From assembly GCA_016779995.1 (NCBI GenBank), contig JADHMO010000001.1, positions 74,638 to 138,637 of the forward strand: a stretch of 64,000 nucleotides of DNA, in the 5' to 3' direction. The notes under the pieces are model-generated. The model worked only from the letters and a program-made list of their open reading frames with translations. It ran no database searches and was not told the DNA's origin. Shown here one piece after another: positions 14,797 through 64,000 of the stretch (positions are counted from its first letter, which is position 1; each line of letters starts with the position of its first letter). Origin of the DNA: Flavobacteriales bacterium. Its GTDB lineage: Bacteria > Bacteroidota > Bacteroidia > Flavobacteriales > UBA7312. The translations under genes and the position numbers were made by a program.

Positions 14797-14830
14797 ATAA
14801 AAAAATAAAAAAAGGAGCCGAAGCTCCTTT
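14797..14830 (-). terminator. strong intrinsic terminator ending the riboswitch-controlled gene
   Basis: The minus strand reads AAAGGAGC-UUCG-GCUCCUUU followed by UUUUUAUUUUUU. It sits 20 nt after the stop at 14851. Confidence 0.8.
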
Positions 14831-14850
14831 GATAAATTTTTTTAAAAAAA

Positions 14851-16017
14851 TTATTGTCTGAAAATCTTTTTGCCTGAACGGATATAAACACCCTTTGGTT
14901 GATTTTCAATTTGATTGATTTTTCTTCCAAACAAATCGAAAAAGACATCGTCTTGAGTTTGATTGATAGAGTAATCTTCTATTGAAGTTGTACTTCTCAC
15001 ATCAAAAACAATGGTTCCTGGTGATACACCACAATCAAATTCAGAAACTAAATTGTTGTCTGCATCATAAATGTGTACTTTTCCATACGTAGAATAGTCC
15101 GTTTCGGAAGCGTATAGATAATTATTGACTTCATCGTAAGCTAACTCATAAAAGTTTTGATTGATTCCCAAAGGATTACCCGAAGATAATAGCGTTGCTG
15201 GATCCCATTCTAACAAAACAGAATCCATTGATATTTGAAAGTTGATTTTATCCCCTCGTAAACAAGATGTACCACAACCTGTACTCACATCAGAAACATT
15301 AATAGTAGTTGAAGAATGTGTACTTAAATCTACTTTTGAAAAGGATGCACCAGACCAGTTTTTATTATTAACAGTATAAATATAGTTGTCTGTAATCATC
15401 ATATTATCGGTATTAGTAGCATCCGAGCCCAAATCTATTTCCTCCAAATAACTCAAGGTATTTAAATCCAATACGCCAATTAGTGATTTTTCATTGCCCC
15501 ATTCGAAACCATTATTAATTGCCACATAAAGTTTATTATCGGTATGTACCATATTCTGAGTAGTCCATTTAGGGCCTTCAGTAGTATCTAATTCTGAAAT
15601 AAAAGTTAAATCAGATTTTGAATAAATTTGAAAGTATGAATCAAAACTTACTCCATACTCTCCTCTTGAAACAAATAAATTGTCATTGACAATTAGTATA
15701 TTTCTTACTCCAGTAACTGATTGACTAGCTAACAACTCATATGTATTCAAATCATACTTGAGAAGTTGTGTATCAGCAGCTATATAGAAATAATCACCAT
15801 TAATAATCATATCTGAAGCAAAACGAGCTCCCTCTATTGTGTCTACTATTGAGTAATTGTTAGTGACAGGATCATAGCTTCCAATAGTAACAGGAGTTTC
15901 TATTTCTCCAGTTGTGTAATTGTAACGACCTTCATTAAGTATCAATACTTGATTAACTACATTTTGTGCTACAACACCTTGATAAATAAGGTATAACACT
16001 AATACTACTTTTTTCAT
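14851..16017 (-). CDS. secreted YncE/DUF5074-like beta-propeller protein with short T9SS-like C-terminal tail; cobalamin-riboswitch controlled
   Basis: Sec signal peptide MKKVVLVLYLIYQGVVAQ with no lipobox Cys. LILNEGRYN... start and repeated ~45-aa blade-like segments. C-terminus ...VFFDLFGRKINQIENQPKGVYIRSGKKIFRQ resembles the last strands of a type-A T9SS CTD. An RF00174-like leader lies directly upstream. Confidence 0.7.
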   Translation of the reverse strand: MKKVVLVLYLIYQGVVAQNVVNQVLILNEGRYNYTTGEIETPVTIGSYDPVTNNYSIVDTIEGARFASDMIINGDYFYIAADTQLLKYDLNTYELLASQSVTGVRNILIVNDNLFVSRGEYGVSFDSYFQIYSKSDLTFISELDTTEGPKWTTQNMVHTDNKLYVAINNGFEWGNEKSLIGVLDLNTLSYLEEIDLGSDATNTDNMMITDNYIYTVNNKNWSGASFSKVDLSTHSSTTINVSDVSTGCGTSCLRGDKINFQISMDSVLLEWDPATLLSSGNPLGINQNFYELAYDEVNNYLYASETDYSTYGKVHIYDADNNLVSEFDCGVSPGTIVFDVRSTTSIEDYSINQTQDDVFFDLFGRKINQIENQPKGVYIRSGKKIFRQ

Positions 16018-16044
16018 TCTATTTTTTTAAGTTTATAGACAAAT

Positions 16045-16232
16045 ACTAAGACCACCTTATCCCGAGGTTTTCCGTTCGTTTGTTATGGCAGGTCTTCTGA
16101 CTTGCTCTCCTAAGTGGCCTTCCCATTCTTACAGAACAGTGGACTGTGGATCTTAGGTTCTTTATGAGCTTACAGCTGCGGGAACAGTTGAGGACTTACA
16201 CCTCCTTCCCTATTAATTCTTTTCAGAAACCG
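16045..16232 (-). promoter_or_regulatory. cobalamin (B12) riboswitch
   Basis: The minus strand reads AAUAGGGAAGGAGGUGUAAGUCCUCAACUGUUCCCGCAGCUGUAAGC...AGUCCACUG...GGGAAGGCCA...AAGUCAGAAGACCUGCC. All conserved aptamer blocks are present, including the B12 box (plus-strand 16087-16102). It lies between a consensus promoter and the ATG at 16017. Confidence 0.9.
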
Positions 16233-16240
16233 TAACGCCA

Positions 16241-16273
16241 CAAAGTTAGCCCTATTTCTTAATAAAAATCAAA
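16241..16273 (-). promoter_or_regulatory. promoter of the riboswitch transcript (TTTG-N21-TAACTTTG)
   Basis: The -7 box is the reverse complement of 16241-16248 and the -33 TTTG is the reverse complement of 16270-16273. This places +1 a few nt upstream of the aptamer. Confidence 0.55.
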
Positions 16274-16290: not shown

Positions 16291-16321
16291 TTATTTACTT
16301 ACTTAAAGCCGATAAATTGTG

Positions 16322-18433
16322 ATGAAACGCTTACTTATTTACTCTTTTACTATTCTTTCTTTTTTATCATTTTCACAACAAATTGCTGTATATGACTTTG
16401 AAAATTTGTCTGAGGGTGATATTAATGGTCAAGATGGATGGCAATATAGCTCATCGTTGTCATCATTAGATAATGGATACAATTGCCCAGTAATTGGGAA
16501 TCCGTTAGTCACTGAGGTTAGTGTGCTTGGTAACTCAGGAAACTATCTAGCTGGTAAGGCTATACGTACTGGAAGTGGTTATGATAATCAAATTGTATTA
16601 ATAAGCAGAAAAAATAACGCTGATTGGTCATTCCCCTCTTTACAAAATAAACAATTTTTGATGTTTGAATTCGTAATGGGTTTGGGCTGTATGAATAGAT
16701 CTGTAAAATTAGGATTCGATGAAAACATGGATGGAAACTATGGTGAAAATTGTGGATTAGAAGATATAAATGAAGCGAGTTTTGGGTTAAGTTGGTCTGT
16801 ATGTGATACACCAACTTATTTAAAGCTTTTCGACGCCTCATCAAATGTAATTGCAACAGATAACCAAGTTAACTGGGGGTTTGTTAGGTATTTAATGGTT
16901 ATAGATTTTTATGCTAATGATTATCAAGGTGAGGTTTGTGTTTTAACTAAACATCTGACCGGACAGACCAACTGGTCTCCAGTAGTATCAATGCAAAATT
17001 TAAATATGGGATTTGATTTTTTATCTGCTGAAAAAAATAATCCAATTAACCTTGACGGAATTATTCTTCAAGAAGGAGGTGATGCTGCATATTTTGACGA
17101 TATAAAGTTTACTGTTTTTGATTTATTTCCTAATGATACCACTATTTGTTTAGGCAAGTCTTTAACTTTAGGAAAACCAATAAATGGAGTTTCGTATGTA
17201 TGGAGCACAGCAGAAACTACACCAACTATAGAAATAACTTCAGAAGGTAGCTATTCTGTTGATCTTTACATTAATAATAATAAAATTTTGTCCGATAGTA
17301 CTTATGTCAGATTTAGGGAATTAGATAATGTAATCAATGACACTTCATTTTGTCAGAATGAATCTATAACATTATTTGCAGAACAAAACTTGGACTTTTA
17401 TTTATGGAACGATAGTAGTACGTATAATCAATTACAAATCGATTCACCTGGAGAATACTCATTATATTTCGAGAAAAATGGTTGCATAGGATTCGATACA
17501 ATAGAAGTAATCGAAATTTTAGCTCCAAATATAGACTTAGGTCAAGATATTATAGCTTGTCCTGATGAAGAAGTCATTTTGCAAGCCAACACGAATGGTA
17601 CAGCTTTCAAATGGTCTGATGGTAGTACGCGGCCTACTTTAGAAGTTAAACAATCTGGAGATTATCATTTGACCACCTCTATTGAGCAATGCACAGCTTC
17701 AGATACTATTAACGTAACTTTTATACCTTCAATAAATTTAGGAAATGATACCACCATTTGTGAGGGTGATTTCTTTACCATTGATTTAGATAAAGATTAT
17801 GAAGATTATTCATGGCACGATGGAGATAAAAGCAGTAGTAAAGATATTCATTATGATGGAGAGTATTTTGTAACCGTAAAAAAACTGAATTGTGTTATAC
17901 AATCAGACACTCTCAAAGTAAATAGAGTATTACTTCCTCGCATTTTAGAAACTACTGACGATACTCTCATGTGTGAAAACTTCCCCTTATTACTTAAAGT
18001 AAAAGCTGAATTATACGATAATTTATTATGGTTCGACGGTCATACTGATACTGTAACATTGGTAAGAACTTCAGGAGTGTATTGGGTAAGCACTAGTAAT
18101 GAATGTGGAGTTATTACGGACAGTATTAAAGTAACAACAGAAAATTGTTTATGTAAAGAGTTTTTGCCTGATGTCTTTACACCAAATGGAGATAGATTAA
18201 ATGACTTTTTTGGATATGAATCTAATTGTATTCCTTCAAAATATTATAGTCTTCAGATTTTTAATAGATGGGGAGAACAAATATTTGAGAGTAATGATTA
18301 TAAACAAAAATGGGACGGAACATTCAAAGGCTCAATATGCCCTACTGATATTTATTCGTTTTTGTTAATTGTTCAATACAAAAATGATATGGGGAAAAGA
18401 ACCATCAAAAGAAAATTTAGTTTAATACAGTAA
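16322..18433 (+). CDS. T9SS type-B (gliding-motility-associated C-terminal domain) cargo protein, paralog 1
   Basis: Signal peptide, a ~250-aa N-terminal jelly-roll-like domain, five ~65-aa Cys-containing Ig-like repeats (NDTxxC...YxW..G.t...i.v...G.Y...), and C-terminal FTPNGDRLNDFF...IFNRWGEQIFES...WDGTFKG (type-B CTD). Confidence 0.85.
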   Translation: MKRLLIYSFTILSFLSFSQQIAVYDFENLSEGDINGQDGWQYSSSLSSLDNGYNCPVIGNPLVTEVSVLGNSGNYLAGKAIRTGSGYDNQIVLISRKNNADWSFPSLQNKQFLMFEFVMGLGCMNRSVKLGFDENMDGNYGENCGLEDINEASFGLSWSVCDTPTYLKLFDASSNVIATDNQVNWGFVRYLMVIDFYANDYQGEVCVLTKHLTGQTNWSPVVSMQNLNMGFDFLSAEKNNPINLDGIILQEGGDAAYFDDIKFTVFDLFPNDTTICLGKSLTLGKPINGVSYVWSTAETTPTIEITSEGSYSVDLYINNNKILSDSTYVRFRELDNVINDTSFCQNESITLFAEQNLDFYLWNDSSTYNQLQIDSPGEYSLYFEKNGCIGFDTIEVIEILAPNIDLGQDIIACPDEEVILQANTNGTAFKWSDGSTRPTLEVKQSGDYHLTTSIEQCTASDTINVTFIPSINLGNDTTICEGDFFTIDLDKDYEDYSWHDGDKSSSKDIHYDGEYFVTVKKLNCVIQSDTLKVNRVLLPRILETTDDTLMCENFPLLLKVKAELYDNLLWFDGHTDTVTLVRTSGVYWVSTSNECGVITDSIKVTTENCLCKEFLPDVFTPNGDRLNDFFGYESNCIPSKYYSLQIFNRWGEQIFESNDYKQKWDGTFKGSICPTDIYSFLLIVQYKNDMGKRTIKRKFSLIQ
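17540..18051 (+). repeat. near-identical tract shared with 20011-20522 (putative gene-conversion tract)
   Basis: Perfectly identical runs at 17675-17811 (137 nt), 17864-17970 (107 nt) and 17972-18051 (80 nt). Flanking coding sequence is far more diverged. Confidence 0.85.
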
Positions 18434-18443
18434 ATTACAGGAT

Positions 18444-18581
18444 ATGAAATCATTAATTCTATTTACTCTAGTTATTTTTATAAATATTACTCTTTATGCT
18501 CAGTGCGACTGGTCGGTTGTTTTTTATGACGATTTTGAGCACAACAACGTTGATCCTGGCTATGTTCAAGGTACTGCTTAA
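18444..18581 (+). pseudogene. truncated 5' fragment (45 codons) of a Big_2/T9SS gene: duplication scar
   Basis: It encodes MKSLILFTLVIFINITLYAQCDWSVVFYDDFEHNNVDPGYVQGTA*. The signal peptide plus ...(V/I)(F/I)Y(D/T)D(F/I)E...(V/L)DP aligns with the N-terminus of the 20909 gene (...SQIIYTDIEPDASTTLDP). The ORF stops where homology to the riboswitch copy begins. Confidence 0.55.
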
Positions 18582-18592
18582 GTAAGTGGCTT

Positions 18593-18690
18593 TCCCATTC
18601 TTGTAGAATAATGGACTAAATCTTAAGTTGTTTTTGAGCTTACAGCTGCAGGAACATTTGAAGACTTACACCTCCTTCCCTATTAATTCT
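18593..18690 (-). other. fossil 5' half of a cobalamin riboswitch (truncated, lacks B12 box)
   Basis: The minus strand reads AAUAGGGAAGGAGGUGUAAGUCUUCAAAUGUUCCUGCAGCUGUAAGC...AGUCCAUUA...GGGAAAGCCACUUA and then ends. Invariant positions are mutated and the B12 box and P1 3' strand are absent. Confidence 0.8.
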
Positions 18691-18754
18691 TATATGAACC
18701 CGTAACGATACGAAGTTAGCCCTAATTCTTAAAAAAAATCTCAAAAAATTACCC

Positions 18755-18762
18755 TATATTTG
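18755..18762 (+). promoter_or_regulatory. -7 box (TATATTTG) for T9SS type-B gene copy 2
   Basis: Exact TAnnTTTG. It overlaps the track's TTG start (18760), so ATG 18790 is the likely start. Confidence 0.5.
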
Positions 18763-18789
18763 TTTTCTTACTTAAAGTCAATTAATGTG

Positions 18790-20904
18790 ATGAAATGTTT
18801 ACTTGTTTACTCCTTCACCTTTCTTACTTTTTTATCATTTTCACAACAAGTTGCTATTTACGACTTTGAAAATTTGTCTAATGGAGATATTACTAATCAA
18901 GATGGGTGGCATTACAGTACTTCTATGTCATCTATGAACAATGGATATAATTGTCCAGTTGTTGGAACACCATTGATACCTCAAATTACTGATATGCCGA
19001 CAGATGGCGATTATATAGCTAGTAAAACTATAATGTCTAATAGTGGCTGGGGCAATCAACATGTTGTGATAAGTAGAGTTAATAATAACGATTGGTCATT
19101 TCCATCATTTCAAAACAAACAATTTCTAATTCTTGAATTTGAAATGTCAGGTGGATGTTGGGGTAAGGATTTTAGGTTAGCATTTGATCAAAATAATGAC
19201 GGTAATTTTGGTCAAAACTGTGGACAATCAGACCCAAATGAAGGAAGTTTTGGCATACAATGGTTTGGCTGTAATCAAAACGCAAATCTTAAACTTTTTG
19301 ATGCTAATTCAGAAATGGTAGCGGTGGAAATGGTACTTGAACCTAGCTGGGTAAAATATGTTATGGTTATTGATTTTTATGCAAACAACTATCAAGGTAG
19401 TGCTAGTGTATTTAGAAAGAATTTAACGAACCAAGCTGATTGGGTTACAATAAACACAATGCAAAATATAAATCTAAATTTTGACACAGCCTCAACCGGT
19501 AACAACAACCCATATAACCTAAATGGAATCAAGATAGATCAAGAAGCTGGTGTACAGGCTTATTTTGACAACATCAAATTCACAGTTATGGATTTCAATC
19601 ATAAAGATACCACAGTATGTGAAGGGGAAACCATAACTATAGGCAATCCCATAAGCGGCAGTCAGTATTTATGGAATACTGGAGATACATCATCTACAAT
19701 AGATGTGAATACTGAAGGTATATATTTTGTAGACTTATATAAGGATGGTTTAAAAGTACTTAGAGATAGTATAACTGTTAATCTAATAGAATTACCAAGA
19801 ACTTTTAACGATACTAGCTACTGTGAAGACGAAAATTTTTTACTATTTGCAGGTAGTAATTTGGACTATCATTTTTGGAATGATAGTATATCAGATAATG
19901 AAATAAACATTAATAGTGCTGGAGAATATACCATTCATTATTCAAAAGATGGATGTGTACGTACTGACACCTTTCAAGTAGTAGAAATTGTACCTCCATA
20001 TATGGATTTAGGTCAAGATTTTACAGCTTGCCCTGATGAAGAAGTCATTTTGCAAGCCAACACGAATGGTACAGCTTTCAAATGGTCTGATGGTAGCACA
20101 CAATCTTCTTTAGAAATAAAACAATCTGGAGAATACCATTTGACTACCTCTATTGAGCAATGCACAGCTTCAGATACTATTAACGTAACTTTTATACCTT
20201 CAATAAATTTAGGAAATGATACCACCATTTGTGAGGGTGATTTCTTTACCATTGATTTAGATAAAGATTATGAAGATTATTCTTGGCATGACGGAGATAA
20301 GAGCACTTCAAAAGACATTCATTATGATGGAGAATATTTTGTAACCGTAAAAAAACTGAATTGTGTTATACAATCAGACACTCTCAAAGTAAATAGAGTA
20401 TTACTTCCTCGCATTTTAGAAACTACTGACGATACTCTCATATGTGAAAACTTCCCCTTATTACTTAAAGTAAAAGCTGAATTATACGATAATTTATTAT
20501 GGTTCGACGGTCATACTGATACAGCGACGATAGTTAGAGAATCAGGCGTTTATTGGGTAAGCGCCTCTAATACATGTGGAGTTGAAACAGATAGCATTAA
20601 AGTAAATGCTGAAAATTGTCTATGTGAAGAGTTTTTACCTAATGTATTTACCCCTAATGAAGATAGACTAAACGACTTTTTTGGCTATCAATCGAATTGT
20701 ATCCCTTCAAAATATTACAGCCTACAAATTTTTAATCGCTGGGGAGAACAGATTTTCGAAAGTCGTGATTATAACGAAAAATGGGATGGCACCTACAGAG
20801 GCAAAATTTGTCCTACTGGTGTCTATTCATATTTATTGGTAGTTCAATATAAAAATGATATGGGAAAAAGAACCATCAAAAGAAAATTTAGTTTAAATCA
20901 ATAA
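18790..20904 (+). CDS. T9SS type-B cargo protein, paralog 2
   Basis: Same architecture as 16322-18433. The N-terminal domain is diverged, the central repeats are near-identical, and the type-B CTD reads FTPNEDRLNDFF...IFNRWGEQIFES...WDGTYRG. Confidence 0.85.
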   Translation: MKCLLVYSFTFLTFLSFSQQVAIYDFENLSNGDITNQDGWHYSTSMSSMNNGYNCPVVGTPLIPQITDMPTDGDYIASKTIMSNSGWGNQHVVISRVNNNDWSFPSFQNKQFLILEFEMSGGCWGKDFRLAFDQNNDGNFGQNCGQSDPNEGSFGIQWFGCNQNANLKLFDANSEMVAVEMVLEPSWVKYVMVIDFYANNYQGSASVFRKNLTNQADWVTINTMQNINLNFDTASTGNNNPYNLNGIKIDQEAGVQAYFDNIKFTVMDFNHKDTTVCEGETITIGNPISGSQYLWNTGDTSSTIDVNTEGIYFVDLYKDGLKVLRDSITVNLIELPRTFNDTSYCEDENFLLFAGSNLDYHFWNDSISDNEININSAGEYTIHYSKDGCVRTDTFQVVEIVPPYMDLGQDFTACPDEEVILQANTNGTAFKWSDGSTQSSLEIKQSGEYHLTTSIEQCTASDTINVTFIPSINLGNDTTICEGDFFTIDLDKDYEDYSWHDGDKSTSKDIHYDGEYFVTVKKLNCVIQSDTLKVNRVLLPRILETTDDTLICENFPLLLKVKAELYDNLLWFDGHTDTATIVRESGVYWVSASNTCGVETDSIKVNAENCLCEEFLPNVFTPNEDRLNDFFGYQSNCIPSKYYSLQIFNRWGEQIFESRDYNEKWDGTYRGKICPTGVYSYLLVVQYKNDMGKRTIKRKFSLNQ
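20011..20522 (+). repeat. near-identical tract shared with 17540-18051
   Basis: See the 17540-18051 entry; offset is 2471 nt. Confidence 0.85.
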
Positions 20905-20908
20905 ACTT

Positions 20909-23068
20909 ATGATTATGAAAAAACAAAATGTAATACTGACAAGTATAATTTTATTATTCGCCAAGAGTCTATTTTCTCAAATAATATACACAGATATTGA
21001 GCCAGATGCAAGTACTACTCTAGACCCAATAATTATGTCAGTCAATGGGGTTGTTGAAATAGATTTTAATAACGATGGGAATGCAGAATTTGATTTTAGA
21101 TGGGATGATTATTCATTTATTGGATACGGTTATTTTTCTCACATTACCAACCCTAATAATAATAGTCATACAATGTGGTTAAGTGGAAGCAACAACAGTT
21201 ATAATGCGGGGTATTTGCAAGTCGTTAATGAAAATGAACTTATTGGACCTAATCTTCAAAGTGGTCTGTGGGGAATGACTATACCTGACCCAATAATAGC
21301 AGACTCTGAAAACAATACATTTCAAGAACTTGGGGATAAATACATCGGAGTTCAAATCAACTTAAATGGTATTCTTCATTATGGTTGGATAAGAGTATCA
21401 TTTGATGAGAATAAGACTTTAACTATCAAAGATTATGCCTATCAAAGTTTACCAAATACCGCAATTCTAGCCGGTGCTTCTCAAGATATTTTACCAGAGT
21501 CTCTAGAAATTGAAGGAGAAAATGGAGTTACAACTATATTAAATAGTCAAAGTTTACAAATGATTAGCAATGTACTTCCAAGCAATGCTAGTAATCAAAA
21601 CGTAATTTGGAGTGTAAGTAACGTTAGTGGTTCTGCTACTATAAATAATACTGGATTACTTACGGCCACTTCTTCTGGAACAGTACTTGTTGAAGGAACT
21701 ATTTTAGGTACTACAATTACTGATACAATCTCAATCATAATTAATCCCAATTTGATAACATCTTTGGTGATTTTTGGAGAAAATAATAACTCTACTGTTT
21801 TGATTGGGCAAACACTACAGATGTATTCCACAATTGTACCCGGTAATGCAGATAATACAAATTTGACCTGGACAGTAAGCGATCAGGGAGGTAGTGCTAC
21901 TATTGCCGACAATGGACTATTAACTGGTGTAACAGAAGGTCAAGTTTTGGTAACAGCCAGCACCAATGATGGTTCAAATTTAAGTGATACAAAATACATT
22001 ACAGTATTACCTGTCAATTTAGATTCCATTTCAATATATTCAGATGGCTTTGTCACAGAAATTGATTTCAATGAAAGCGTTCAAATGAGTGTCATATTTT
22101 ATCCAGAAAATGCCACCTACCAAGAAGTAAGTTGGGATATAGTTGAACTAGAAGCTAATGCAAGCATAAATCAAAACGGTATGGTTTATGGACAAAGTGG
22201 TTCTCAAGGAATTGTTCAAGTTGTTGCTACTTCTACTATTTCTAATTCAGTATCAGATACGTTTGACTTATTCATTAACTACATACCTATCACTACTATC
22301 ATTGTTCAGGGAGAAAACGGTTTAATGTCTGTAGATGAAGAAAATGACTTGCAGATGGAGGCTATTGTTAGCCCTTCTAATGCTACATCTTCTAATGTAA
22401 CATGGAGCGTTGAGAATTTAACTGGAGAAGCTACAATTGCATTCGATACAGGCATATTAACAGGTGTTAGTCAAGGAACAGTTAAAGTTATAGCAAATGC
22501 TGCTGATGGCAGTGGTACAATTGGAGATACTATCGTTACTATCAATGAATTGTATCGTTATATAACCTCAATAGAAGTACAAGGAGAAAATGGGGCTACA
22601 TCAATCAATTTGAATGGTTATTTACAAATGAATGCTACAATTTTACCTCAAAATGCTACTAATCCATTGATTGCTTGGACAGTAGTCAACAATACAGGCT
22701 CTGCCTTTATAAATGATGAGGGATTACTTTCACCTACTTCATTAGGTGATGTCATTGTAAAAGCTGTCGCACAAGATGGTTCAAATTTAATCGGACAAGA
22801 AACAATAAACATAACTCAAGCAGTTGGGTTAACTTTTGATAATAATGAAATCACAAAAATATTCCCCAACCCTACTAGTTCGAGTATTTATGTACAGTCT
22901 TCAAAAGATATAGAACATATCAGTTTGTTTTCAATCGATGGAAAATTGATTATGGAGGAAAAGCAGTCGAATTTATTAAATCTGAATAGACTAAGCAATG
23001 GTAGTTATTTAGTAAAAGTAAACTACTTAGACAAAACCTCAGACATTCAACTCATTATGAAACAATAG
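20909..23068 (+). CDS. T9SS type-A cargo protein with five Big_2 (bacterial Ig-like group 2) repeats and an uncharacterised N-terminal domain
   Basis: Five repeats of the pattern LQMxxxVxPxNAxNxxVxWxVxNxxGxATIxxxGLLTxxxxGxVxV. C-terminal IFPNPTSSSIYVQ...NGSYLVKV... type-A CTD. Starts 4 nt after the upstream gene. Confidence 0.85.
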   Translation: MIMKKQNVILTSIILLFAKSLFSQIIYTDIEPDASTTLDPIIMSVNGVVEIDFNNDGNAEFDFRWDDYSFIGYGYFSHITNPNNNSHTMWLSGSNNSYNAGYLQVVNENELIGPNLQSGLWGMTIPDPIIADSENNTFQELGDKYIGVQINLNGILHYGWIRVSFDENKTLTIKDYAYQSLPNTAILAGASQDILPESLEIEGENGVTTILNSQSLQMISNVLPSNASNQNVIWSVSNVSGSATINNTGLLTATSSGTVLVEGTILGTTITDTISIIINPNLITSLVIFGENNNSTVLIGQTLQMYSTIVPGNADNTNLTWTVSDQGGSATIADNGLLTGVTEGQVLVTASTNDGSNLSDTKYITVLPVNLDSISIYSDGFVTEIDFNESVQMSVIFYPENATYQEVSWDIVELEANASINQNGMVYGQSGSQGIVQVVATSTISNSVSDTFDLFINYIPITTIIVQGENGLMSVDEENDLQMEAIVSPSNATSSNVTWSVENLTGEATIAFDTGILTGVSQGTVKVIANAADGSGTIGDTIVTINELYRYITSIEVQGENGATSINLNGYLQMNATILPQNATNPLIAWTVVNNTGSAFINDEGLLSPTSLGDVIVKAVAQDGSNLIGQETINITQAVGLTFDNNEITKIFPNPTSSSIYVQSSKDIEHISLFSIDGKLIMEEKQSNLLNLNRLSNGSYLVKVNYLDKTSDIQLIMKQ

Positions 23069-48101: not shown

Positions 48102-51100
48102 CTATCTAAAAAATCGTTTTTTGAAGTTATCAACATCCGTTTCTGAAGACAAATCGTATTGGTATTGAGCTTGTCCCTTAGAGGCTGGTAGCTTCTTTTG
48201 TTGGGATTTCACTTCCAAAATACCAATGTTGTAATCTTCTATTGAAGAACGACTGAGTAATACCTCATTAGAATAGGTAAAGAAATACCACTCGCCAATA
48301 TCTGTTTCTAAATAGACATTAAAGATGTCACCAGAATAATCTTTATTGAGCTCCAGTCGTCCTTTGTACAGCTTATTGATTTGGAAGTCATTAACGTTAC
48401 CCAAGCCTAACATCTTTTTAGACATAATGCTTGAATTTTCTTGATCCCACTCTAGATTAACATCGTAGAAATAAAGGGTTTTCTTTAGTTTAGATGGTAA
48501 CTTTTGAAACTGTCCATACATCTCGTATTCAAAAGATAAATCCTCATCCTTCAAGATTCTTTTAAAATTAGGAATATAAAAACTCTCTTTCATCTCTAAC
48601 TCATCTGCCATTGGGTCGTTAAACAAGTCTTGCCCCATAAATTCCATAGCGTTATTGCTCATGTAAAAATCTAAGGATAACATACACTTAGTTTTAAAGG
48701 TATTCTCTACAGCATTGTAGTTGAAATTACCAATAGTAGAAAGTTCTACTCGTCCTAAATCAAGTCCTAAATTAAACTCTCCCTCTCCTTTCATTATACA
48801 ACCCTCGTTGGTCATCGTAAATTTACTTGCCAAAGAATCAGTTTTATCTTGTACAATAAACATAGAAAGCCCTGTATTATAAGATAAATAACCATTAATA
48901 GGCATCATAACCAAATCCGTTTCTTGCTCTAGTACAGAAAGGAAAGCTGGATAGATTCTATCTTCTGACATGATAGGGCCTACATACAAGTTCTTGCCAT
49001 TTTCGTCAAGTACTTCACCACCTATCGGCAATTGTATGTCTTCTACCCCAACGTAATCGCTGAACTTAACCCAACCGTCTTTGACTAAGTAACATTCGTG
49101 TTGTACTTGAAAAGCACCGTCGTAATAAAACTCTTTCATAGAGCCTTCCATCTTAACAGACCCTTTGTAAGAGAATTGAGGGTTAAACTTAAACCCTCTT
49201 TCTGAGCTAATAGTTCCTATACCCACCGATTGATAAATGCTATCGACATACAAGGAATCAAAGCGAATCAATTGTTCTTCAACACCTCTACCCTTGTAGT
49301 TTACCGAAGCACGACCCGCATAACTTTTACCACCATGAATCGTCACATCAGCATCAAATAATTCGTGGTAGCGTTTATCTCTATTAACTAAAATAGAAGC
49401 GCCTTTAAAACTTCTCATTCTTGCTCCTGTCTCCACCGTAACAGAACCATCAGCAGGATAAATAGCTGCATCGGCAACTAGTATCTCATCCACTTCTTCA
49501 GCATCTATAATGTAATTCTTTAAACTATATGAGGCTTTTCTAGAAACAAAAGACAAGGAATCTTGCTCGGGGTGAGTAGAAACAAACCTAGAGCCACTTC
49601 CGCCCTCAGACACACCCAATTCTATCAAACTTCTATCCATGAACCATTTTAGCTCATCGATAAAACAGATGTATTGGTTTTCAGGAAATGCCACAAATGA
49701 ATTGTTACCGTTAGATTGGAATTTACCTGTTCTTTCTAATAAATTAATCTCCGTACGCAAGTTTACAGACTCAAAGGCAATGGCTTTGAAATCATCAGAG
49801 CGGTGCAAGACAAAATCGGCTGTATCGGCATTAAATTCATTGTGATTGAAGTAGTATAAATTAGAACTTAATTCGGAATCTTCTAGATAAACATTACCTG
49901 CTCCCGTAAGTCCACTAGGGCGAAGATAAAAACGACCATCAAGGGTTGCTTTAGCAGAATACAATACCAAATCTTCGGTCTTTTTTTCTACCATTAGAAC
50001 GTCATCATAAGGTCGCCAATGCTCATATATAGTTTTACCACTAGCCTGAGGAAATTCAGCAATATTGGCTGTTCTTTCGAGGTCAAATGTGTTAGCATGG
50101 GTATTCATAGAATCTGGGAAGAATATATAATCGTCAGACTGTGTAGTCGAAGATAAATAGTCAAACCCTCCTTTACCTCTTAATCCAGATTTGTCTAATG
50201 ATAATCTATTGTTGGCATGAAATTGACCTTTATCGCCATACAAAGGATAGCCCGTTTCTGGAATATCAATCTTGAACCCTAAAGCATTATCTTCTTGCAC
50301 TCTTAATTCTTCTCTAAAACTTGGGAAAATGTTTGCCGAATTCAGCTCACCAGGAAAACTAAGCGAAGAACGGTTGTATGAATCTAAAGAATCTATTTCG
50401 AAAGGGTCTATATCGAAGTAAAAACGCTCTCTATCATATACTCCAGAAAATATTTCTTCTTGGTCGTAATATACCTTAGAACGGTCATAACTTCTGATGA
50501 TTGGGTATTGGGGATAATCTTCTTTCCATATTCCCGATTTATTGATGGTTGTATCGACCAACAATTCGCCATTGGCAATAGTAATTTCATTCTCTAAAGG
50601 TTCTAATACCAACTCCCCTTTTTCATTGTATTTCTCCTGATTGTTAGGAATCCAAACCTCTGTTGAAGCGTCTTTAAAATAAAGTCTAAAATCTTCGTAG
50701 TTAAAGGTTATATCTTCTGAATTTATTCTAAAACGTCCTCCTGCTCCTGCTATTAATCGTCCACCCATAGTGAAATTACGTCCTTCTTTAACAACAATTT
50801 CTTGCTTAGTAGGTAAAGCTATGACATCTCTTACTTCACTCAACTGAACCCGCTTAACGTTAAAAACTTTTAAGTCCATAGTGTTTAAGTCCAGAATAGC
50901 ATTCGCATTGTCTTGTGGTGCACTAGATTTAAAACGAATAACATCGTGGTCTTCCTTTTCTGATTTGGCCATAATATAACGAAGAACGTTATCTTTTACT
51001 CCTACTGTCCCCAATCCAGAATTGTAGGTGATAAAACCTTGCTTAGCCAAATTCATCAAAAAACGAATGTCCTGATCATCGGAATAGCCCGAAAGCCTAA

Positions 51101-52538
51101 CAAAATCATCAATCAAGAATATATTATTGATACCATACTGCTTGTTAAAATTGTTAATCCTAACTAAAGGATGCTGAGCATCTATTCCTAACAATGCATC
51201 AAAATGTTTTTCAGTATAATACCTATTGGACTCAAAAAAGGCTGGCTGACTAGTATTTTCTGGTAAGGTTCCAAAAATGATTTCATCGTCATCGATGTTC
51301 CAACCTAACTTCTGAAAACGCATATCTAAATCGTGATACGAATTGATATAAGGAGCAGAAGATATACCATCTTCATCAGAAATTAAATCCAAACGTCTAT
51401 CTTCTTGGTCATATATAAAATTTAAACCAGGGTGGGTAATAGAGTCATTAGCTAAAATGATTTTTACAGATGCATTAGAGGCTAAAACCCGCTTTCCAGT
51501 AATTGCAATTCTTTCCGAAGAAATACGAACAAATTGCTGACCTTTACGATAGAATATCAAACTTGCTAATTGACCATCTCCTCCCTTGGATACAAAACGG
51601 TTGCCGTACAAAGAATACCCTCCTATAAAATCTACATCTTCAATTAAATCAGAAAGAGTAATTTTCTTATCGTAAGAATCGAATTTAGGATAAGCTACCT
51701 TGCTATCATTCTTGTTCCTTTCAACCAGTTTATTCTCAAGACTTCCTAGTATGGGCTTGTCGTCAAAAACCATTAAATTATAAAAACGCACGGAGTCTGC
51801 TGAAAAGCTAGGTTGCTTTAAAGCAATAGAATACTTTGAAAGTTCGGCATATACTTCGGCAAAACTAAAACCTGCCTTACGCCAATCTATTAAACCTTCA
51901 TTTCCTCGCCATAAACCTTCAATAGGATAAAATGTACCACTAGTTTGGGCTATTTTCATAGTGTCTTGTCTAGCAATACACATCATATCTATGGGCTGAT
52001 TGAACTTTATCACTGGCACACTATCTTCTATAGCAAATTGATAGTTTAAGTTAGAAGTGTACCAACTCAAAGAACGGTTTCTAAAAAGTGTTTTTAGAGT
52101 AAATAAATCGTCGGAAAGGGTGTAAAATTTCAGTAATCTAGAAGTTGGAGAAGTTTCAATCAATAAACTAACTATAGCTGACCAATTATTAAACTGAGTG
52201 TCAAAGGATTCGGCATCTGTAAATGATACTATGGCTTTTAACAAAGACTCAAAATGAGTTGGTCTTTTTCTGTCTTTCAACATTTTGTTGGATAAATCAA
52301 TGATAGAAGATTTTTTATCCGAAGAAAAAGTATTGCCTTCCCACATCTTAGAAAAATCTTTCATCATTTTCTTAGTTTCTTCAGAGGCAGAACCCGTTAG
52401 CATAAAGGTATTGATTTCCTCTAAAAAGACCTTATTGTCATCAGTAAACGCCCTTAACCTCTTGTTTGATTGTGCATAGACAGAGGATGCTAAAATGAAA
52501 AAAGATAATAGAAAAGTTAGTTTTTTAATAGCTTTCAT
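48102..52538 (-). CDS. very large (1478 aa) secreted protein of unknown function
   Basis: Uninterrupted ORF with signal peptide MKAIKKLTFLLSFFILASSVYAQ. I recognise no domain or repeat, and it has no T9SS CTD. The ATG at 52538 overlaps the prmA stop (ATGA). Confidence 0.8.
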   Translation of the reverse strand: MKAIKKLTFLLSFFILASSVYAQSNKRLRAFTDDNKVFLEEINTFMLTGSASEETKKMMKDFSKMWEGNTFSSDKKSSIIDLSNKMLKDRKRPTHFESLLKAIVSFTDAESFDTQFNNWSAIVSLLIETSPTSRLLKFYTLSDDLFTLKTLFRNRSLSWYTSNLNYQFAIEDSVPVIKFNQPIDMMCIARQDTMKIAQTSGTFYPIEGLWRGNEGLIDWRKAGFSFAEVYAELSKYSIALKQPSFSADSVRFYNLMVFDDKPILGSLENKLVERNKNDSKVAYPKFDSYDKKITLSDLIEDVDFIGGYSLYGNRFVSKGGDGQLASLIFYRKGQQFVRISSERIAITGKRVLASNASVKIILANDSITHPGLNFIYDQEDRRLDLISDEDGISSAPYINSYHDLDMRFQKLGWNIDDDEIIFGTLPENTSQPAFFESNRYYTEKHFDALLGIDAQHPLVRINNFNKQYGINNIFLIDDFVRLSGYSDDQDIRFLMNLAKQGFITYNSGLGTVGVKDNVLRYIMAKSEKEDHDVIRFKSSAPQDNANAILDLNTMDLKVFNVKRVQLSEVRDVIALPTKQEIVVKEGRNFTMGGRLIAGAGGRFRINSEDITFNYEDFRLYFKDASTEVWIPNNQEKYNEKGELVLEPLENEITIANGELLVDTTINKSGIWKEDYPQYPIIRSYDRSKVYYDQEEIFSGVYDRERFYFDIDPFEIDSLDSYNRSSLSFPGELNSANIFPSFREELRVQEDNALGFKIDIPETGYPLYGDKGQFHANNRLSLDKSGLRGKGGFDYLSSTTQSDDYIFFPDSMNTHANTFDLERTANIAEFPQASGKTIYEHWRPYDDVLMVEKKTEDLVLYSAKATLDGRFYLRPSGLTGAGNVYLEDSELSSNLYYFNHNEFNADTADFVLHRSDDFKAIAFESVNLRTEINLLERTGKFQSNGNNSFVAFPENQYICFIDELKWFMDRSLIELGVSEGGSGSRFVSTHPEQDSLSFVSRKASYSLKNYIIDAEEVDEILVADAAIYPADGSVTVETGARMRSFKGASILVNRDKRYHELFDADVTIHGGKSYAGRASVNYKGRGVEEQLIRFDSLYVDSIYQSVGIGTISSERGFKFNPQFSYKGSVKMEGSMKEFYYDGAFQVQHECYLVKDGWVKFSDYVGVEDIQLPIGGEVLDENGKNLYVGPIMSEDRIYPAFLSVLEQETDLVMMPINGYLSYNTGLSMFIVQDKTDSLASKFTMTNEGCIMKGEGEFNLGLDLGRVELSTIGNFNYNAVENTFKTKCMLSLDFYMSNNAMEFMGQDLFNDPMADELEMKESFYIPNFKRILKDEDLSFEYEMYGQFQKLPSKLKKTLYFYDVNLEWDQENSSIMSKKMLGLGNVNDFQINKLYKGRLELNKDYSGDIFNVYLETDIGEWYFFTYSNEVLLSRSSIEDYNIGILEVKSQQKKLPASKGQAQYQYDLSSETDVDNFKKRFFR

Positions 52539-53356
52539 AGTTTTTGAAATTTTGCTGTTACCCAATTATTTTTGGAATTATGACTGATGTATTTTAATCC
52601 TTGTCTTTTAGCTTCTTGCTTTATCAAGTCTAAATCTTGCTCGTAAAAACCACTAAACAAAATCAATCCATTTTGAAGCAAATGGCTAGAGTATGCATAC
52701 ATATCTTGAATCAAGATATTTCTATTGATATTGGCTAAAATTATATCAAACTCTCCTTCAATTTTTTCTTTACCACCTTTATGCACTACTATGTTTGAAC
52801 TTCCATTCATACTAATATTTTCTAGTGCATTATTGTAAGCCCATTCTTCAATGTCAATAGCATCAACCTTATTAGAACCTAATTTGTAAGCTAATATTGC
52901 CAATACTGCTGTGCCACAGCCCATATCTAACACTTTCTTATCTTGAAAATCTAAGCTTAGCATAGCCTCCATCATACCATAAGTTGTTGCGTGATGCCCT
53001 GTTCCAAAGGACATTTTTGGGGTAATAATAATTTCATACTCTACTTCTAGTGGTTTATGAAAATCCGCTCGAATACCACACTTACTCCCTATGGTTATGG
53101 GTTGAAAATCAGATTCCCATTTGGCATTCCAATTTTCTTGCTTTATAACTTTATGATTGATGTCAATCTTACAATCCAATTGACTACAAATGCTTTCTAT
53201 ATCAGAAAAGTTAAAATCATCTTCTTTAATGTAGGCTCTTACTCCTTCGTTGATATCCTCAAAGCTTTCAAAATCTAGGTCAGACAGATAGGCTACAAGA
53301 ATTTCACTCCACGGTTGCAGAGGCTGAAATGAAAATATAACTTCTTTATAGTTCAT
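52535..53356 (-). CDS. prmA: ribosomal protein L11 methyltransferase
   Basis: ...FGTGHHATT...VLDMGCGTAVLAI... SAM-binding motifs in a PrmA layout. Confidence 0.88.
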   Translation of the reverse strand: MNYKEVIFSFQPLQPWSEILVAYLSDLDFESFEDINEGVRAYIKEDDFNFSDIESICSQLDCKIDINHKVIKQENWNAKWESDFQPITIGSKCGIRADFHKPLEVEYEIIITPKMSFGTGHHATTYGMMEAMLSLDFQDKKVLDMGCGTAVLAILAYKLGSNKVDAIDIEEWAYNNALENISMNGSSNIVVHKGGKEKIEGEFDIILANINRNILIQDMYAYSSHLLQNGLILFSGFYEQDLDLIKQEAKRQGLKYISHNSKNNWVTAKFQKL

Positions 53357-63542: not shown

Positions 63543-64000
63543 CTATTGTAAAATTAACTTTTCACTAGAGGTTCTATTATTTGTATTAATGAATAGGTTA
63601 TAGATACCTTTGGGATATGTAGATAAATCCAAAATTATAGTATGATTTCCATTTGTATTTAACTTATAACTTAAAATTTTCTCACCAAGTAGATTAGTAA
63701 CATTAATATCAATAATACCATTGGAAATAAATTCTAATGTAAAGCTATCATAAGACGGATTAGGGAATATACTTAGATTAAATTCTTCTTCCAATATAGA
63801 AGAAATATCTTGACATTGTTTTTCACACTCTTCTAAGCTAGAATATTCTCCTGTTCCATCGTTTAGAACCCCACAAACACCATTATCGCATCTCCAACTT
63901 TCATTTGTTGACGAACAGTTTTGCAAACAATCGTTGATAGTAGAGAATTCACCACTACCATCACTAGGGTCAATACAAACATTATTAACACAATTAAAAC
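63543..64000 (-). CDS. T9SS type-A cargo protein with repeated 4-Cys modules (5' end beyond window)
   Basis: The frame stays open to position 64000; the track's 'M' at 63926 is an internal TTG/Leu. The C-terminal LSIFPNPSYDSFTLEF...GIYNLFINT... is a type-A CTD. Upstream are two copies of C-x3-C-x5-G-x-G-E-[FY]-S-[ST]-x2-[DE]-C-x3-C. Confidence 0.75.
   Translation of the reverse strand, partial: FNCVNNVCIDPSDGSGEFSTINDCLQNCSSTNESWRCDNGVCGVLNDGTGEYSSLEECEKQCQDISSILEEEFNLSIFPNPSYDSFTLEFISNGIIDINVTNLLGEKILSYKLNTNGNHTIILDLSTYPKGIYNLFINTNNRTSSEKLILQ

What the first reader, a model, noticed from the sequence alone, without database searches (positions are those of the whole stretch)
14797..16273. 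Cobalamin riboswitch controlling a stand-alone secreted beta-propeller, with no btuB or cobalamin-metabolism gene in the unit
The minus strand from 16232 to 16045 contains every conserved block of the cobalamin aptamer: AAUAGGGAA, GGUGUAAGUCC, CUGUUCCCGCAGCUGUAAGC, AGUCCACUG, GGGAAGGC and the B12 box AAGUCAGAAGACCUGCC (plus-strand 16087-16102). It sits between a TTTG-N21-TAACTTTG promoter and the ATG at 16017. The controlled unit is a single gene, closed by a strong UUCG-loop terminator at 14797-14830. That gene encodes a 388-aa protein with an SPI-type signal peptide and no lipobox Cys. It has a YncE/DUF5074-like propeller pattern (LILNEG..., blade-like repeats) and a short tail resembling the last strands of a T9SS CTD. 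In Bacteroidota, B12 riboswitches normally head btuB loci, where the surface lipoprotein BtuG (a beta-propeller) captures corrinoids. Here there is no TonB-dependent receptor in the transcript, and the propeller looks secreted or T9SS-routed rather than lipidated. This suggests a corrinoid-scavenging protein working at a distance from its transporter, analogous to a hemophore, which I do not know to be described. I see no terminator or SD-sequestering helix in the expression platform. GGUGGUCUU (plus-strand 16048-16056) can pair with the B12 box AAGACC(U)GCC, so the switching mechanism in this SD-less lineage is itself an open question.
Basis: partly seen in the sequence, partly recalled or inferred. 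Interest (0 to 1): 0.8.

Follow-up and report, generated by a model that had tools for sequence, protein, structure and literature searches.

The report
B12-switched, unanchored BtuG-like corrinoid binder
A vitamin-B12-sensing RNA switch in a marine Flavobacteriales genome controls a single gene for a distant, non-lipidated relative of BtuG, the B12-capturing surface protein of gut Bacteroides, encoded away from any outer-membrane B12 transporter; this points to an undescribed way in which ocean bacteria scavenge B12.

Summary
Window 16249-16070 (-) is a cobalamin riboswitch (RF00174, 97 bits). It has its own Bacteroidota-type promoter and controls one gene (16017-14851), closed by a strong terminator.

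The 388-aa product has a signal-peptidase-I signal and no lipobox. Its modelled seven-bladed propeller matches only BtuG structures closely. Most BtuG corrinoid-contact positions are kept, and these are the family's invariant residues.

The pairing is old and widespread. About three quarters of roughly 95 related loci, at 37-97% protein identity, carry the riboswitch directly upstream. None has a TonB-dependent receptor inside the controlled unit.

Most relatives (58 of 75) end in a type A T9SS sorting domain. Syntenic orthologues at about 80% identity carry a full one. The window protein's 45-aa tail passes no test for that domain.

A P13 hairpin lies 16 nt after the B12 box. Its loop (CGGG) kisses L5 (CCCG), with covariation across six sequence classes.

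The hemophore-like idea stays untested. The rivals are a lid for a BtuB encoded elsewhere and a periplasmic binder.

Verdict: a new variant of a known kind, of moderate to high interest.

The parts
16270..16273 (-). Candidate -33 promoter element, TTTG
   Evidence: Read from the sequence. It lies 21 nt upstream of the -7 box, which fits the Bacteroidota promoter consensus (my own knowledge of that consensus).
16241..16248 (-). Candidate -7 promoter element, TAACTTTG (TAnnTTTG type)
   Evidence: Read from the sequence. A TAnnTTTG box lies at a similar distance (16-46 nt) upstream of the aptamer's GGGAA block in 36 of 59 non-redundant related leaders.
16070..16249 (-). Cobalamin riboswitch aptamer (RF00174, classical type with the P6 extension)
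   Evidence: 97.2 bits, E 5e-23, full-length match. It is conserved upstream of orthologues and paralogous clades.
16179..16184 (-). L5 loop UUCCCG, the kissing-loop partner
   Evidence: Rfam alignment. It covaries with L13.
16087..16103 (-). B12 box AAGUCAGAAGACCUGCC
16054..16068 (-). P13 hairpin ACCU-CGGGAUA-AGGU of the expression platform. The L13 core CGGG (16064..16061) is complementary to the L5 core CCCG.
   Evidence: L5/L13 pairs seen across loci are CCCG/CGGG, UCUG/CAGA, CCAG/CUGG, UCCG/CGGA, CCCA/UGGG and CUCG/CGAG. A sequence's own complement is present in 29 of 32 cases; a foreign complement is present in 30 of 192.
16042..16051 (-). Conserved platform box UCUUAGUAUU, role unresolved. 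It could pair with the L13 nucleotides GGGA(U). It could also pair with the aptamer strand CCUAAGAUCC at 16157..16148.
   Evidence: The box is conserved in the window clade at 65-100% protein identity. The minimum-free-energy fold pairs it with 16157..16148. RNAalifold finds a weak GGGAU/AUCUU helix with one covarying pair.
14851..16017 (-). Coding sequence for the 388-aa BtuG-like propeller protein, stop codon included
   Evidence: A 100% identical protein, P0001, comes from a marine Flavobacteriales metagenome-assembled genome.
15967..16017 (-). Signal peptide, residues 1-17, with predicted cleavage A|Q and no lipobox Cys
   Evidence: Read from the sequence. Family N-termini consistently end in A-Q. 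The Bacteroidota Q-rule is my own knowledge.
14992..15963 (-). Seven-bladed beta-propeller, residues 19-342, BtuG fold
   Evidence: AlphaFold2 pLDDT is above 90 over most of this range. The top 13 Foldseek PDB hits are all BtuG2, BtuG3 or BACUNI_02894, at E 4e-17 to 2e-14 and target-normalised TM 0.76-0.84. The family profile matches BtuG chains at E 5e-16. hhalign gives E 4e-6.
14854..14991 (-). C-terminal tail, residues 343-388, with a D-x-x-G-R motif and GVYI..GKKIF; possibly the remnant of a T9SS sorting domain
   Evidence: The tail is conserved across short-tailed members, with D-x-x-G-R invariant. It gives no Por_Secre_tail hit at E<=10. hhalign against true sorting domains gives 12.8% probability. 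Model confidence is below 50.
14799..14830 (-). Intrinsic terminator: AAAGGAGC-UUCG-GCUCCUUU followed by a U-tract
   Evidence: 8 pairs, 4 of them G-C; sequence.

Best explanation
This is an autonomous single-gene unit that is switched off by B12.

The RNA part. A Bacteroidota-type promoter starts a transcript that begins with a classical cobalamin aptamer. When a corrinoid is bound, loop L5 (CCCG) kisses loop L13 (CGGG) of the P13 hairpin, which lies 16 nt after the B12 box. This locks the short, AU-rich, terminator-less leader into a state that lowers expression. The AUG lies 36 nt after P13, so the most likely mechanism is interference with SD-independent translation initiation.

The protein part. 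The gene encodes a divergent member of the BtuG/DUF5074 family. It is a seven-bladed propeller whose central cavity keeps the BtuG corrinoid-contact residues. It leaves the cytoplasm through Sec and signal peptidase I and carries no lipid anchor. Most family members, and syntenic orthologues, are T9SS cargo. Its job is high-affinity capture of corrinoids outside the cytoplasm when B12 is scarce. It would hand them to an uptake route encoded elsewhere in the genome.

What is shown: the aptamer, the kissing-loop covariation, the single-gene architecture, the BtuG fold and homology, the conserved contact residues, and the family-wide association with the riboswitch.

What is inferred: corrinoid binding, the direction and mechanism of regulation, the final location of the protein, and the existence of a partner transporter.
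For: RNA:
- RF00174 scores 97 bits.
- The same aptamer lies directly upstream in L001-L004, L008, L010 and L011, L013 and L015, 56 of 80 metagenome loci and L097/L098. These loci span 37-97% protein identity.
- L5 and L13 covary in six classes.
- A conserved -7 box lies just before the aptamer, and a terminator follows the gene.

Protein:
- The family profile matches BtuG2, BtuG3 and BtuG1 chains at E 5e-16 over the full length. The PDB codes were checked against PMC10404256 and bioRxiv 10.1101/2024.02.16.580637.
- The AlphaFold2 model has mean pLDDT 85. Its top 13 Foldseek hits are all BtuG; the next hit, BamB, is about 10^4-fold weaker than the weakest BtuG hit, with TM 0.52.
- BtuG2 contact residues, taken, map as follows: E55, G56, F58, Q93, R133, W194, Q219, Y316 and Y335 onto E29, G30, Y32, S68, R105, F171, N202, Y290 and Y308. 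Of these, E29, G30, R105, N202 and Y290 are invariant in the 36-sequence core family.

Context:
- One relative is followed by BtuFCD-like genes (L015).
- About 25 sister-clade loci have a lipidated BtuG-like gene directly downstream.
- The window and its relatives are rich in T9SS cargo.
Against: - No binding or expression experiment exists.
- The window protein alone gives no Pfam or NCBIfam hit. Single-sequence hits to BtuG are insignificant, at E 0.3-3.
- Two defining BtuG features are absent: the lipobox with its export signal, and linkage to btuB.
- About a quarter of related loci have no riboswitch.
- No structure that sequesters the start codon is supported by covariation in the window clade. 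The step from kissing loop to repression is therefore not demonstrated.
- Whether the genome encodes BtuB, or uses B12 at all, could not be checked from 64 kb.
Confidence: 0.72

Rival explanations
1. Hemophore-like scavenger. T9SS exports the propeller and releases it, or tethers it loosely. It captures corrinoids at a distance and passes them to a surface receptor, either a lipidated BtuG-like protein or a BtuB encoded elsewhere.
For: - There is no lipid anchor.
- 58 of 75 relatives carry a type A sorting domain.
- Syntenic orthologues at about 80% identity, with the same riboswitch and the same neighbours, carry a complete Cys-rich linker plus sorting cassette. That cassette is 40% identical to the one on another cargo gene in this window.
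- No receptor lies in the unit in about 95 loci.
- In the sister clade a lipidated BtuG-like gene follows directly, which would fit a two-step relay.
Against: - The window protein's own tail fails the sorting-domain model and is only weakly alignable to it.
- Type A sorting-domain cargo is often anchored covalently to the cell surface rather than released (my own knowledge).
- Release, diffusion and hand-over are all untested.
- The lipoprotein gene in L035 has its own TAnnTTTG box, so co-regulation is uncertain.
Confidence: 0.3
2. An ordinary BtuG lid with an unusual anchor. The protein sits on a BtuB encoded at another locus, exactly as BtuG does. It is held there by protein-protein contacts or by T9SS-mediated attachment to lipopolysaccharide instead of a lipid.
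For: - The fold and the ligand face are those of BtuG.
- BtuG forms stable complexes with BtuB (PMC10404256).
- Four loci (L076, L077, L085, L092) have a TonB-dependent receptor that ends just before the aptamer.
Against: - In gut Bacteroides, 106 of 112 btuG homologues lie in btuB operons (PMC6143338). Here, none of about 95 loci has a receptor inside the controlled unit.
- The neighbouring receptors score best against heme/hemoglobin-receptor models, all far below cut-off, and lie outside riboswitch control.
- The BtuB-contacting surface could not be assessed.
Confidence: 0.3
3. Periplasmic corrinoid binder. In the short-tailed clade the sorting domain has decayed. The protein stays in the periplasm after signal-peptidase-I cleavage and acts as a BtuF-like shuttle or store.
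For: - The signal peptide is of the signal-peptidase-I type and no sorting domain is detectable.
- Partner genes in other clades are inner-membrane components: BtuFCD-like in L015, and the membrane protein DUF6580 in 11 loci.
Against: - The tail is conserved with an invariant D-x-x-G-R motif across members down to about 28% identity. That argues for a function rather than decay.
- Orthologues at the same locus are clear T9SS cargo.
- L015 already encodes a BtuF-type binding protein next to the propeller.
Confidence: 0.2
4. The propeller is not a corrinoid binder. It has another B12-related or unrelated role, for example an enzyme or an adhesin, and the riboswitch merely couples it to B12 status.
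For: - Sequence identity to BtuG is only 16-18%.
- Beta-propellers are functionally diverse.
- A quarter of related loci lack the riboswitch.
Against: - The positions that are invariant in the family are the BtuG ligand contacts.
- The best structural matches are exclusively BtuG.
- The riboswitch association persists across deep divergence.
Confidence: 0.08

Closest known systems
BtuG (BT1954/BtuG2, BT2095/BtuG3, BT1490/BtuG1; Pfam DUF5074), the surface B12-capturing lipoprotein of gut Bacteroides
   Same: - It has the same seven-bladed propeller: TM about 0.8 and rmsd 2.1-2.8 A.
- Homology is detectable by profile.
- The corrinoid-contact residues at the start of each blade's inner strand are conserved.
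- It is controlled by a cobalamin riboswitch.
- It is found in Bacteroidota.
   Different: - It has no lipobox Cys and no lipoprotein export signal. Instead it has a signal-peptidase-I signal ending A|Q.
- It is never co-transcribed with btuB.
- It carries a C-terminal T9SS sorting domain, or a 45-aa tail in this clade.
- The mobile Trp272 of BtuG2 is replaced by a G-C-G motif with an invariant, unpaired Cys.
- The window protein itself does not reach the DUF5074 threshold.
Accessory extracellular B12 binders of Bacteroides (BtuH, BtuJ and DUF4465 proteins), described as an 'extracellular relay'
   Same: They are additional high-affinity corrinoid binders outside the cell. They feed the BtuBG core and are regulated by B12 riboswitches (PMC13616437, PMC8941943).
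   Different: - They have different folds.
- They are lipoproteins.
- They are encoded inside btuB operons.
Hemophores (HasA type; HmuY of Porphyromonas)
   Same: This is a functional analogy only. A ligand-capturing protein outside the cell serves a TonB-dependent transporter.
   Different: They have an unrelated fold and ligand. Release of the protein and hand-over of the ligand are not shown here.
Classical cobalamin riboswitches with an L5-L13 kissing loop (RF00174)
   Same: All aptamer blocks are present. The P6 extension is present. The L5-L13 loop-loop pairing covaries.
   Different: In this clade the platform is only about 50 nt long. It has no terminator and no Shine-Dalgarno sequence to sequester, because the lineage does not rely on one. 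The step from kissing loop to repression is unclear.

Membership tests
Cobalamin riboswitch (RF00174) | The covariance-model score exceeds the curated gathering score over the full model | tested here: met
   97.2 bits against 31.5, model positions 1-189
Cobalamin riboswitch (RF00174) | B12 box and conserved core blocks | tested here: met
   AAGUCAGAAGACCUGCC at 16103..16087; the GGGAA, GGUG..CC and CCACUG blocks are aligned
Cobalamin riboswitch (RF00174) | A regulatory kissing loop between L5 and a downstream hairpin loop (L13) | tested here: met
   Six covarying L5/L13 classes. The sequence's own complement is present in 29 of 32 cases, a foreign one in 30 of 192
Cobalamin riboswitch (RF00174) | Binds a corrinoid and represses the downstream gene | not testable with these tools
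   Needs in-line probing or ITC, and reporter assays
BtuG / DUF5074 | Seven-bladed beta-propeller of the BtuG type | tested here: met
   Model pLDDT 85. The top 13 PDB fold hits are all BtuG, at E down to 4e-17
BtuG / DUF5074 | Sequence membership (Pfam PF16819 model) | tested here: not met
   The window protein has no Pfam hit at E<=0.01. 4 of 75 relatives hit DUF5074 weakly. BtuG2 hits it at 1.7e-20. Homology appears only by profile: E 5e-16 and hhalign E 4e-6
BtuG / DUF5074 | Lipobox Cys followed by a surface lipoprotein export signal | tested here: not met
   The N-terminus MKKVVLVLYLIYQGVVAQN has no Cys. Family N-termini end in A|Q. The BtuG criteria come from PMC6143338
BtuG / DUF5074 | Encoded next to btuB in a riboswitch-controlled operon | tested here: not met
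   The riboswitch is present. No TonB-dependent receptor lies in the unit in the window or in about 95 related loci. One lies directly upstream, outside the unit, in only 4 loci
BtuG / DUF5074 | Conserved corrinoid-contact residues | tested here: met
   E29, G30, Y32, S68, R105, F171, N202, Y290 and Y308 correspond to BtuG2 E55, G56, F58, Q93, R133, W194, Q219, Y316 and Y335. Trp272 is not conserved, which is also true of BtuG3. The mapping rests on sequence alignments, which disagree by a few residues in two loops
BtuG / DUF5074 | Binds cobalamin and cobinamide tightly and associates with BtuB | not testable with these tools
   Biochemistry is required
T9SS type A C-terminal sorting domain (PF18962 / TIGR04183) | Match to the sorting-domain model | tested here: not met
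   The window protein gives no hit. Ten short tails, scanned alone at E<=10, give no hit. 58 of 75 relatives, and the syntenic orthologues P0089 and P0091, do match
T9SS type A C-terminal sorting domain (PF18962 / TIGR04183) | Homology of the tail to the C-terminal strands of the sorting domain | tested here: inconclusive
   hhalign places D-x-x-G-R on the middle strand of the sorting domain, but at 12.8% probability. The tail is modelled with pLDDT below 50
Hemophore-like secreted scavenger | Released from the cell and delivers its ligand to an outer-membrane receptor | not testable with these tools
   Needs secretome analysis and transfer assays

The most novel reading that the evidence does not exclude
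Marine and freshwater Bacteroidota make a T9SS-exported, non-lipidated 'cobalaminophore'. It is a BtuG-derived propeller, produced only under B12 starvation, that works away from any dedicated BtuB.

It would use an invariant free cysteine (Cys248, in the motif G-C-G-T/A-S) to ligate the cobalt of aquacobalamin as a thiolate. This cysteine sits at the mouth of the cavity, where BtuG2 has its gating Trp272.

The protein would then pass the corrinoid to a lipidated BtuG-like protein or to inner-membrane importers (BtuFCD, DUF6580).
Probability: 0.15. Interest if true: 0.85.

Novelty: new variant of a known kind. Interest (0 to 1): 0.58.

Why it matters
B12 is a scarce, traded micronutrient in the ocean, and many marine Flavobacteriales are thought to depend on outside supply. 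How they capture it is known only by extrapolation from gut Bacteroides, where lipidated BtuG sits on BtuB.

This locus defines a large, environmentally widespread branch of the BtuG family, with 457 clusters at 50% identity. The branch is switched by B12 but is organised differently. It has no lipid anchor, it uses a T9SS sorting domain or a short tail, and it has no adjacent receptor. Its partners vary: a second, lipidated BtuG-like protein, BtuFCD, or DUF6580.

If binding is confirmed, three things follow:
- It gives a marker gene for B12 limitation in metatranscriptomes.
- It gives a candidate secreted or surface-displayed corrinoid binder.
- It gives a natural system for asking how a riboswitch regulates expression in a lineage that does not use Shine-Dalgarno pairing.

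Tried and rejected
1. Hairpin at the start codon. My first idea for the platform was a hairpin UCUAU/AUAGA abutting the AUG, with its loop ACUUA kissing UAAGU of the GGAGG-UGUAAGU-CCUC stem-loop that I first took for L5. It is not conserved in L001 or L003, so I dropped it.

2. GGUGGUCUU pairing with the B12 box is not conserved in L001, L002 or L017-L019, so I rejected it.

3. Unbiased hairpin picking. Choosing the longest stem after the B12 box usually picked other stems and gave a weak signal. I replaced it with a test of own complement against foreign complement.

4. Start-codon sequestration. RNAalifold on the clade's platform found no covariation-supported helix that hides the start codon. 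It found only a weak GGGAU/AUCUU helix.

5. Terminators in other clades. The simple terminator scan found none in the longer platforms of L084 or L008. I therefore make no claim about termination in those clades.

6. Single-sequence searches. The protein alone found nothing significant in Pfam, NCBIfam or the PDB.

7. DUF6580. Neither a single sequence nor a profile matched any solved structure, and no paper mentions the family. Its role stays open. I ran no further search on it.

8. Adjacent receptors. The TonB-dependent receptors in L076 and L085 are not BtuB by NCBIfam. They score far below every cut-off, and their best matches are heme/hemoglobin-receptor models.

9. Literature. Searches for T9SS together with cobalamin riboswitch, BtuB or BtuG, and for 'cobalaminophore', found no prior description.

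10. BtuB in this genome. I could not locate it.
Full report
**Observation**

Rfam finds one riboswitch in the window. It is RF00174 at 16249..16070 on the minus strand, scoring 97.2 bits (gathering score 31.5, E 5e-23) over the full model.
- TTTG (16273..16270), a 21-nt spacer and TAACTTTG (16248..16241)
- the B12 box at 16103..16087
- the ATG at 16017

The ORF 16017..14851 encodes 388 aa. An 8-bp hairpin with a UUCG loop and a U-tract at 14830..14799 closes the unit, just ahead of the next gene, a Na+/H+ exchanger.

**Organism and synteny**

The protein is 100% identical to a hypothetical protein of a marine Flavobacteriales metagenome-assembled genome, and hundreds of near-identical copies come from ocean metagenomes. 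In relatives the gene keeps the same neighbours: an HTH gene, dihydroorotate dehydrogenase and an HMGL-like gene upstream, and the Na+/H+ exchanger, GcvT and ComB downstream. In the window, three large T9SS-cargo genes (16319-23068) are inserted upstream.

No TonB-dependent receptor, btuFCD gene or B12 enzyme was found among the 30 window ORFs scanned against Pfam, which included every ORF of 440 aa or more. phmmer with three receptor seeds against all window ORFs also found none.

**What the protein is**

Alone, the protein hits no Pfam or NCBIfam model. It gives only insignificant matches to PDB chains, which nevertheless are BtuG chains.

An exhaustive search found 457 cluster representatives at 50% identity. 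A profile of 75 diverse members matches BtuG2, BtuG3 and BtuG1 chains over the whole propeller at E 5e-16 to 5e-13. I verified the PDB codes as BtuG in PMC10404256 and bioRxiv 10.1101/2024.02.16.580637.

An AlphaFold2 model built from 36 homologues has mean pLDDT 85, with most of residues 19-342 above 90. Its 13 best Foldseek matches in the PDB are all BtuG2, BtuG3 or BACUNI_02894, at E 4e-17 to 2e-14, target-normalised TM 0.76-0.84 and rmsd 2.1-3.8 A. The next hit, BamB, has E 2e-10 and TM 0.52.

**Ligand site**

The published BtuG2 contacts align as follows in both the HMMER and the hhalign alignments:

| BtuG2 | Window protein |
|---|---|
| E55, G56 | E29, G30 |
| F58 | Y32 |
| Q93 | S68 |
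| R133 | R105 |
| W194 | F171 |
| Q219 | N202 |
| Y316 | Y290 |
| Y335 | Y308 |

For R133, the preprint prints 135. Of the window residues, E29, G30, R105, N202 and Y290 are invariant in the 36-sequence core family, as are N28, D82 and G103.

In the model these residues fall at the start of the innermost strand of successive blades. At the equivalent place in blade 6, where BtuG2 has the mobile Trp272, the family has G-C-G-(T/A)-S with an invariant Cys248. The other cysteines are not conserved, so this thiol is unpaired. Corrinoid binding is therefore a well-founded inference, but it is not shown.

**Sorting signals**

The N-terminus has no Cys, and family N-termini end in A|Q. That is typical of signal-peptidase-I substrates in Bacteroidota (my own knowledge of the Q-rule). 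The BtuG hallmarks, a lipobox Cys and an export signal (PMC6143338), are absent.

58 of 75 relatives carry Por_Secre_tail. The window clade instead has a conserved tail of about 45 aa..FFDLFGRKINQIENQPKGVYIRSGKKIFRQ. All short-tailed members, down to about 28% identity, keep D-x-x-G-R. The tails match no sorting-domain model even at E<=10. A profile comparison with true sorting domains puts D-x-x-G-R on the middle strand of that domain at only 12.8% probability.

However, orthologues P0089 and P0091 sit at the same locus with the same riboswitch, leader and neighbours, and are 79-82% identical in the propeller. They replace the tail with a Cys-rich linker and a full type A sorting domain. That cassette is 40% identical to the one on another cargo gene at the window's end. 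Export by T9SS is thus established by model match for close orthologues and remains open for the window protein.

**Association with the riboswitch and with other genes**

RF00174 lies directly upstream in these loci:
- L001-L004
- L008
- L010 and L011
- L013 and L015

An nhmmer model of these aptamers finds it in 56 of 80 metagenome loci, and in L016, L097 and L098. Rfam finds none in 18 loci that have enough upstream DNA, nor in L006, L007 or L009. About three quarters of loci therefore carry it, across 37-97% protein identity.

No locus has a TonB-dependent receptor inside the controlled unit. In L076, L077, L085 and L092 a receptor ends just before the aptamer, and L085 keeps a -7 box of its own. 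The two receptors scanned (L076, L085) score best against heme/hemoglobin-receptor models, all far below cut-off.

Recurrent partners are:
- BtuFCD-like genes downstream in L015.
- A DUF6580 membrane protein. It lies downstream in L011 and next to P0280, and directly upstream in nine loci that lack the riboswitch.
- A 355-aa surface lipoprotein directly downstream in about 25 sister-clade loci. It has a lipobox and an acidic export signal, and its profile matches BtuG2 at E 2e-13. The window holds no homologue of it.

**Expression platform**

There is one: ACCU-CGGGAUA-AGGU at 16068..16054. Its loop core CGGG is complementary to the L5 core CCCG (16182..16179).

Across loci the two loops change together: CCCG/CGGG, UCUG/CAGA, CCAG/CUGG, UCCG/CGGA, CCCA/UGGG and CUCG/CGAG. 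Only the ACUG class keeps three pairs. A sequence's own complement occurs in the 40 nt after the B12 box in 29 of 32 sequences. Complements of other classes occur in 30 of 192 comparisons. This is the standard L5-L13 kissing loop.

Downstream of P13 the clade conserves UCUUAGUAUU (16051..16042). It can pair with the L13 nucleotides, as a weak helix with one covarying pair. It can also pair with the aptamer strand CCUAAGAUCC, as in the minimum-free-energy fold.

No helix that hides the start codon is supported, and there is no terminator in the platform. Repression of translation through the kissing-loop state is my best inference. Rho-dependent or decay-based control is not excluded. Other clades have platforms of about 50 to 180 nt. 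I make no claim about their mechanism.

**Comparison with what is known**

The riboswitch is ordinary. The protein works like BtuG in fold and probably in ligand, but it fails two defining features of BtuG: lipidation and linkage to btuB. I therefore describe it as a divergent branch of the BtuG/DUF5074 superfamily rather than as a BtuG.

The literature I could search describes BtuG only as a lipoprotein lid on BtuB, together with other lipidated binders in an 'extracellular relay'. It does not mention T9SS-sorted or stand-alone forms. Public annotation calls family members 'hypothetical', 'YncE family' or 'T9SS type A sorting domain-containing protein'.

**Verdict**

The finding is a new variant of a known kind. 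The hemophore-like reading is possible, at about 0.3. It competes with a lid for a BtuB encoded elsewhere and with a periplasmic binder. The most novel reading still open is a secreted scavenger that ligates cobalt through the invariant cysteine. It is unlikely but easy to test.

Noticed in passing
window 16319-23068 (+): Three tandem genes of 704-719 aa encode T9SS cargo: two with type B CHU_C sorting domains, and one with Big_2 repeats plus a type A sorting domain. They lie between the riboswitch unit and the HMGL-like gene. Close relatives (L001, L003, L004, L017, L019) have no such insertion, while L027 and L031 have one related gene there. This looks like a variable island of secreted proteins.
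   Followed up: partly
window 15276-15274 (Cys248 of the propeller; motif at residues 247-251): Cys248 in G-C-G-(T/A)-S is invariant in the 36-sequence core family and present in 51 of 75 wider members. The other cysteines are not conserved, so this thiol is unpaired. It sits at the start of the inner strand of blade 6, about where BtuG2 has the gating Trp272 over the upper axial ligand. It could be a cobalt ligand.
   Followed up: partly
L032-L073 (e.g. L035 7248-8312 +): In the sister clade (50-57% identity) the propeller gene is followed, on the same strand after about 70 nt, by a 355-aa surface lipoprotein. Its profile matches BtuG2 at E 2e-13, so two BtuG-like proteins, one unanchored and one lipidated, lie side by side. 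The lipoprotein gene also has its own TAnnTTTG box.
   Followed up: partly
L011 11321-11851; L075 1210-1737; also L030, L058, L062, L063, L068, L071, L072, L087: A DUF6580 membrane protein of about 165-176 aa lies next to the propeller gene in 11 loci. Its conserved motifs are RLIPHPPNFTP, TNFQVW and ECY..PF. In nine of these loci it lies directly upstream and no riboswitch is present. No solved structure or paper was found for it. It is a candidate corrinoid importer.
   Followed up: partly
L015 11352-14459: Here the riboswitch-controlled propeller (45% identity, with a full sorting domain) is followed by Peripla_BP_2, FecCD and ABC_tran genes. These form a BtuFCD-like inner-membrane importer, with no receptor gene in the unit.
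   Followed up: no
window 63546-63998 (-), running off the window end: This partial ORF carries repeated Cys-rich modules (W-x-C-x4-C ... DG-G-Y-S ... C-x3-C) and a type A sorting domain. It is 40% identical to the linker-plus-sorting cassette that replaces the short tail in the 466-aa propeller orthologues P0089 and P0091. This suggests that sorting cassettes are exchanged among cargo genes of this lineage.
   Followed up: partly
window 48102-52565 (-): A 1487-aa ORF with no Pfam match at E<=1e-4.
   Followed up: no
L076 3243-5675; L077 968-3430; L085 3134-5695; L092 (partial): In a few freshwater loci a TonB-dependent receptor of 811-854 aa ends immediately before the aptamer. The two receptors scanned score best against heme/hemoglobin-receptor models, far below every cut-off. 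They lie outside riboswitch control, so their link to the propeller is unclear.
   Followed up: partly
L074 2108-3064 (-); also L049: A lipoprotein of the HmuY family lies convergent to the propeller gene in two loci.
   Followed up: no
L010 10001-12295; L069; L070: Syntenic orthologues of 532-765 aa fuse the propeller to fn3 and plastocyanin-like copper-binding domains ahead of the sorting domain. They are still under the riboswitch.
   Followed up: no
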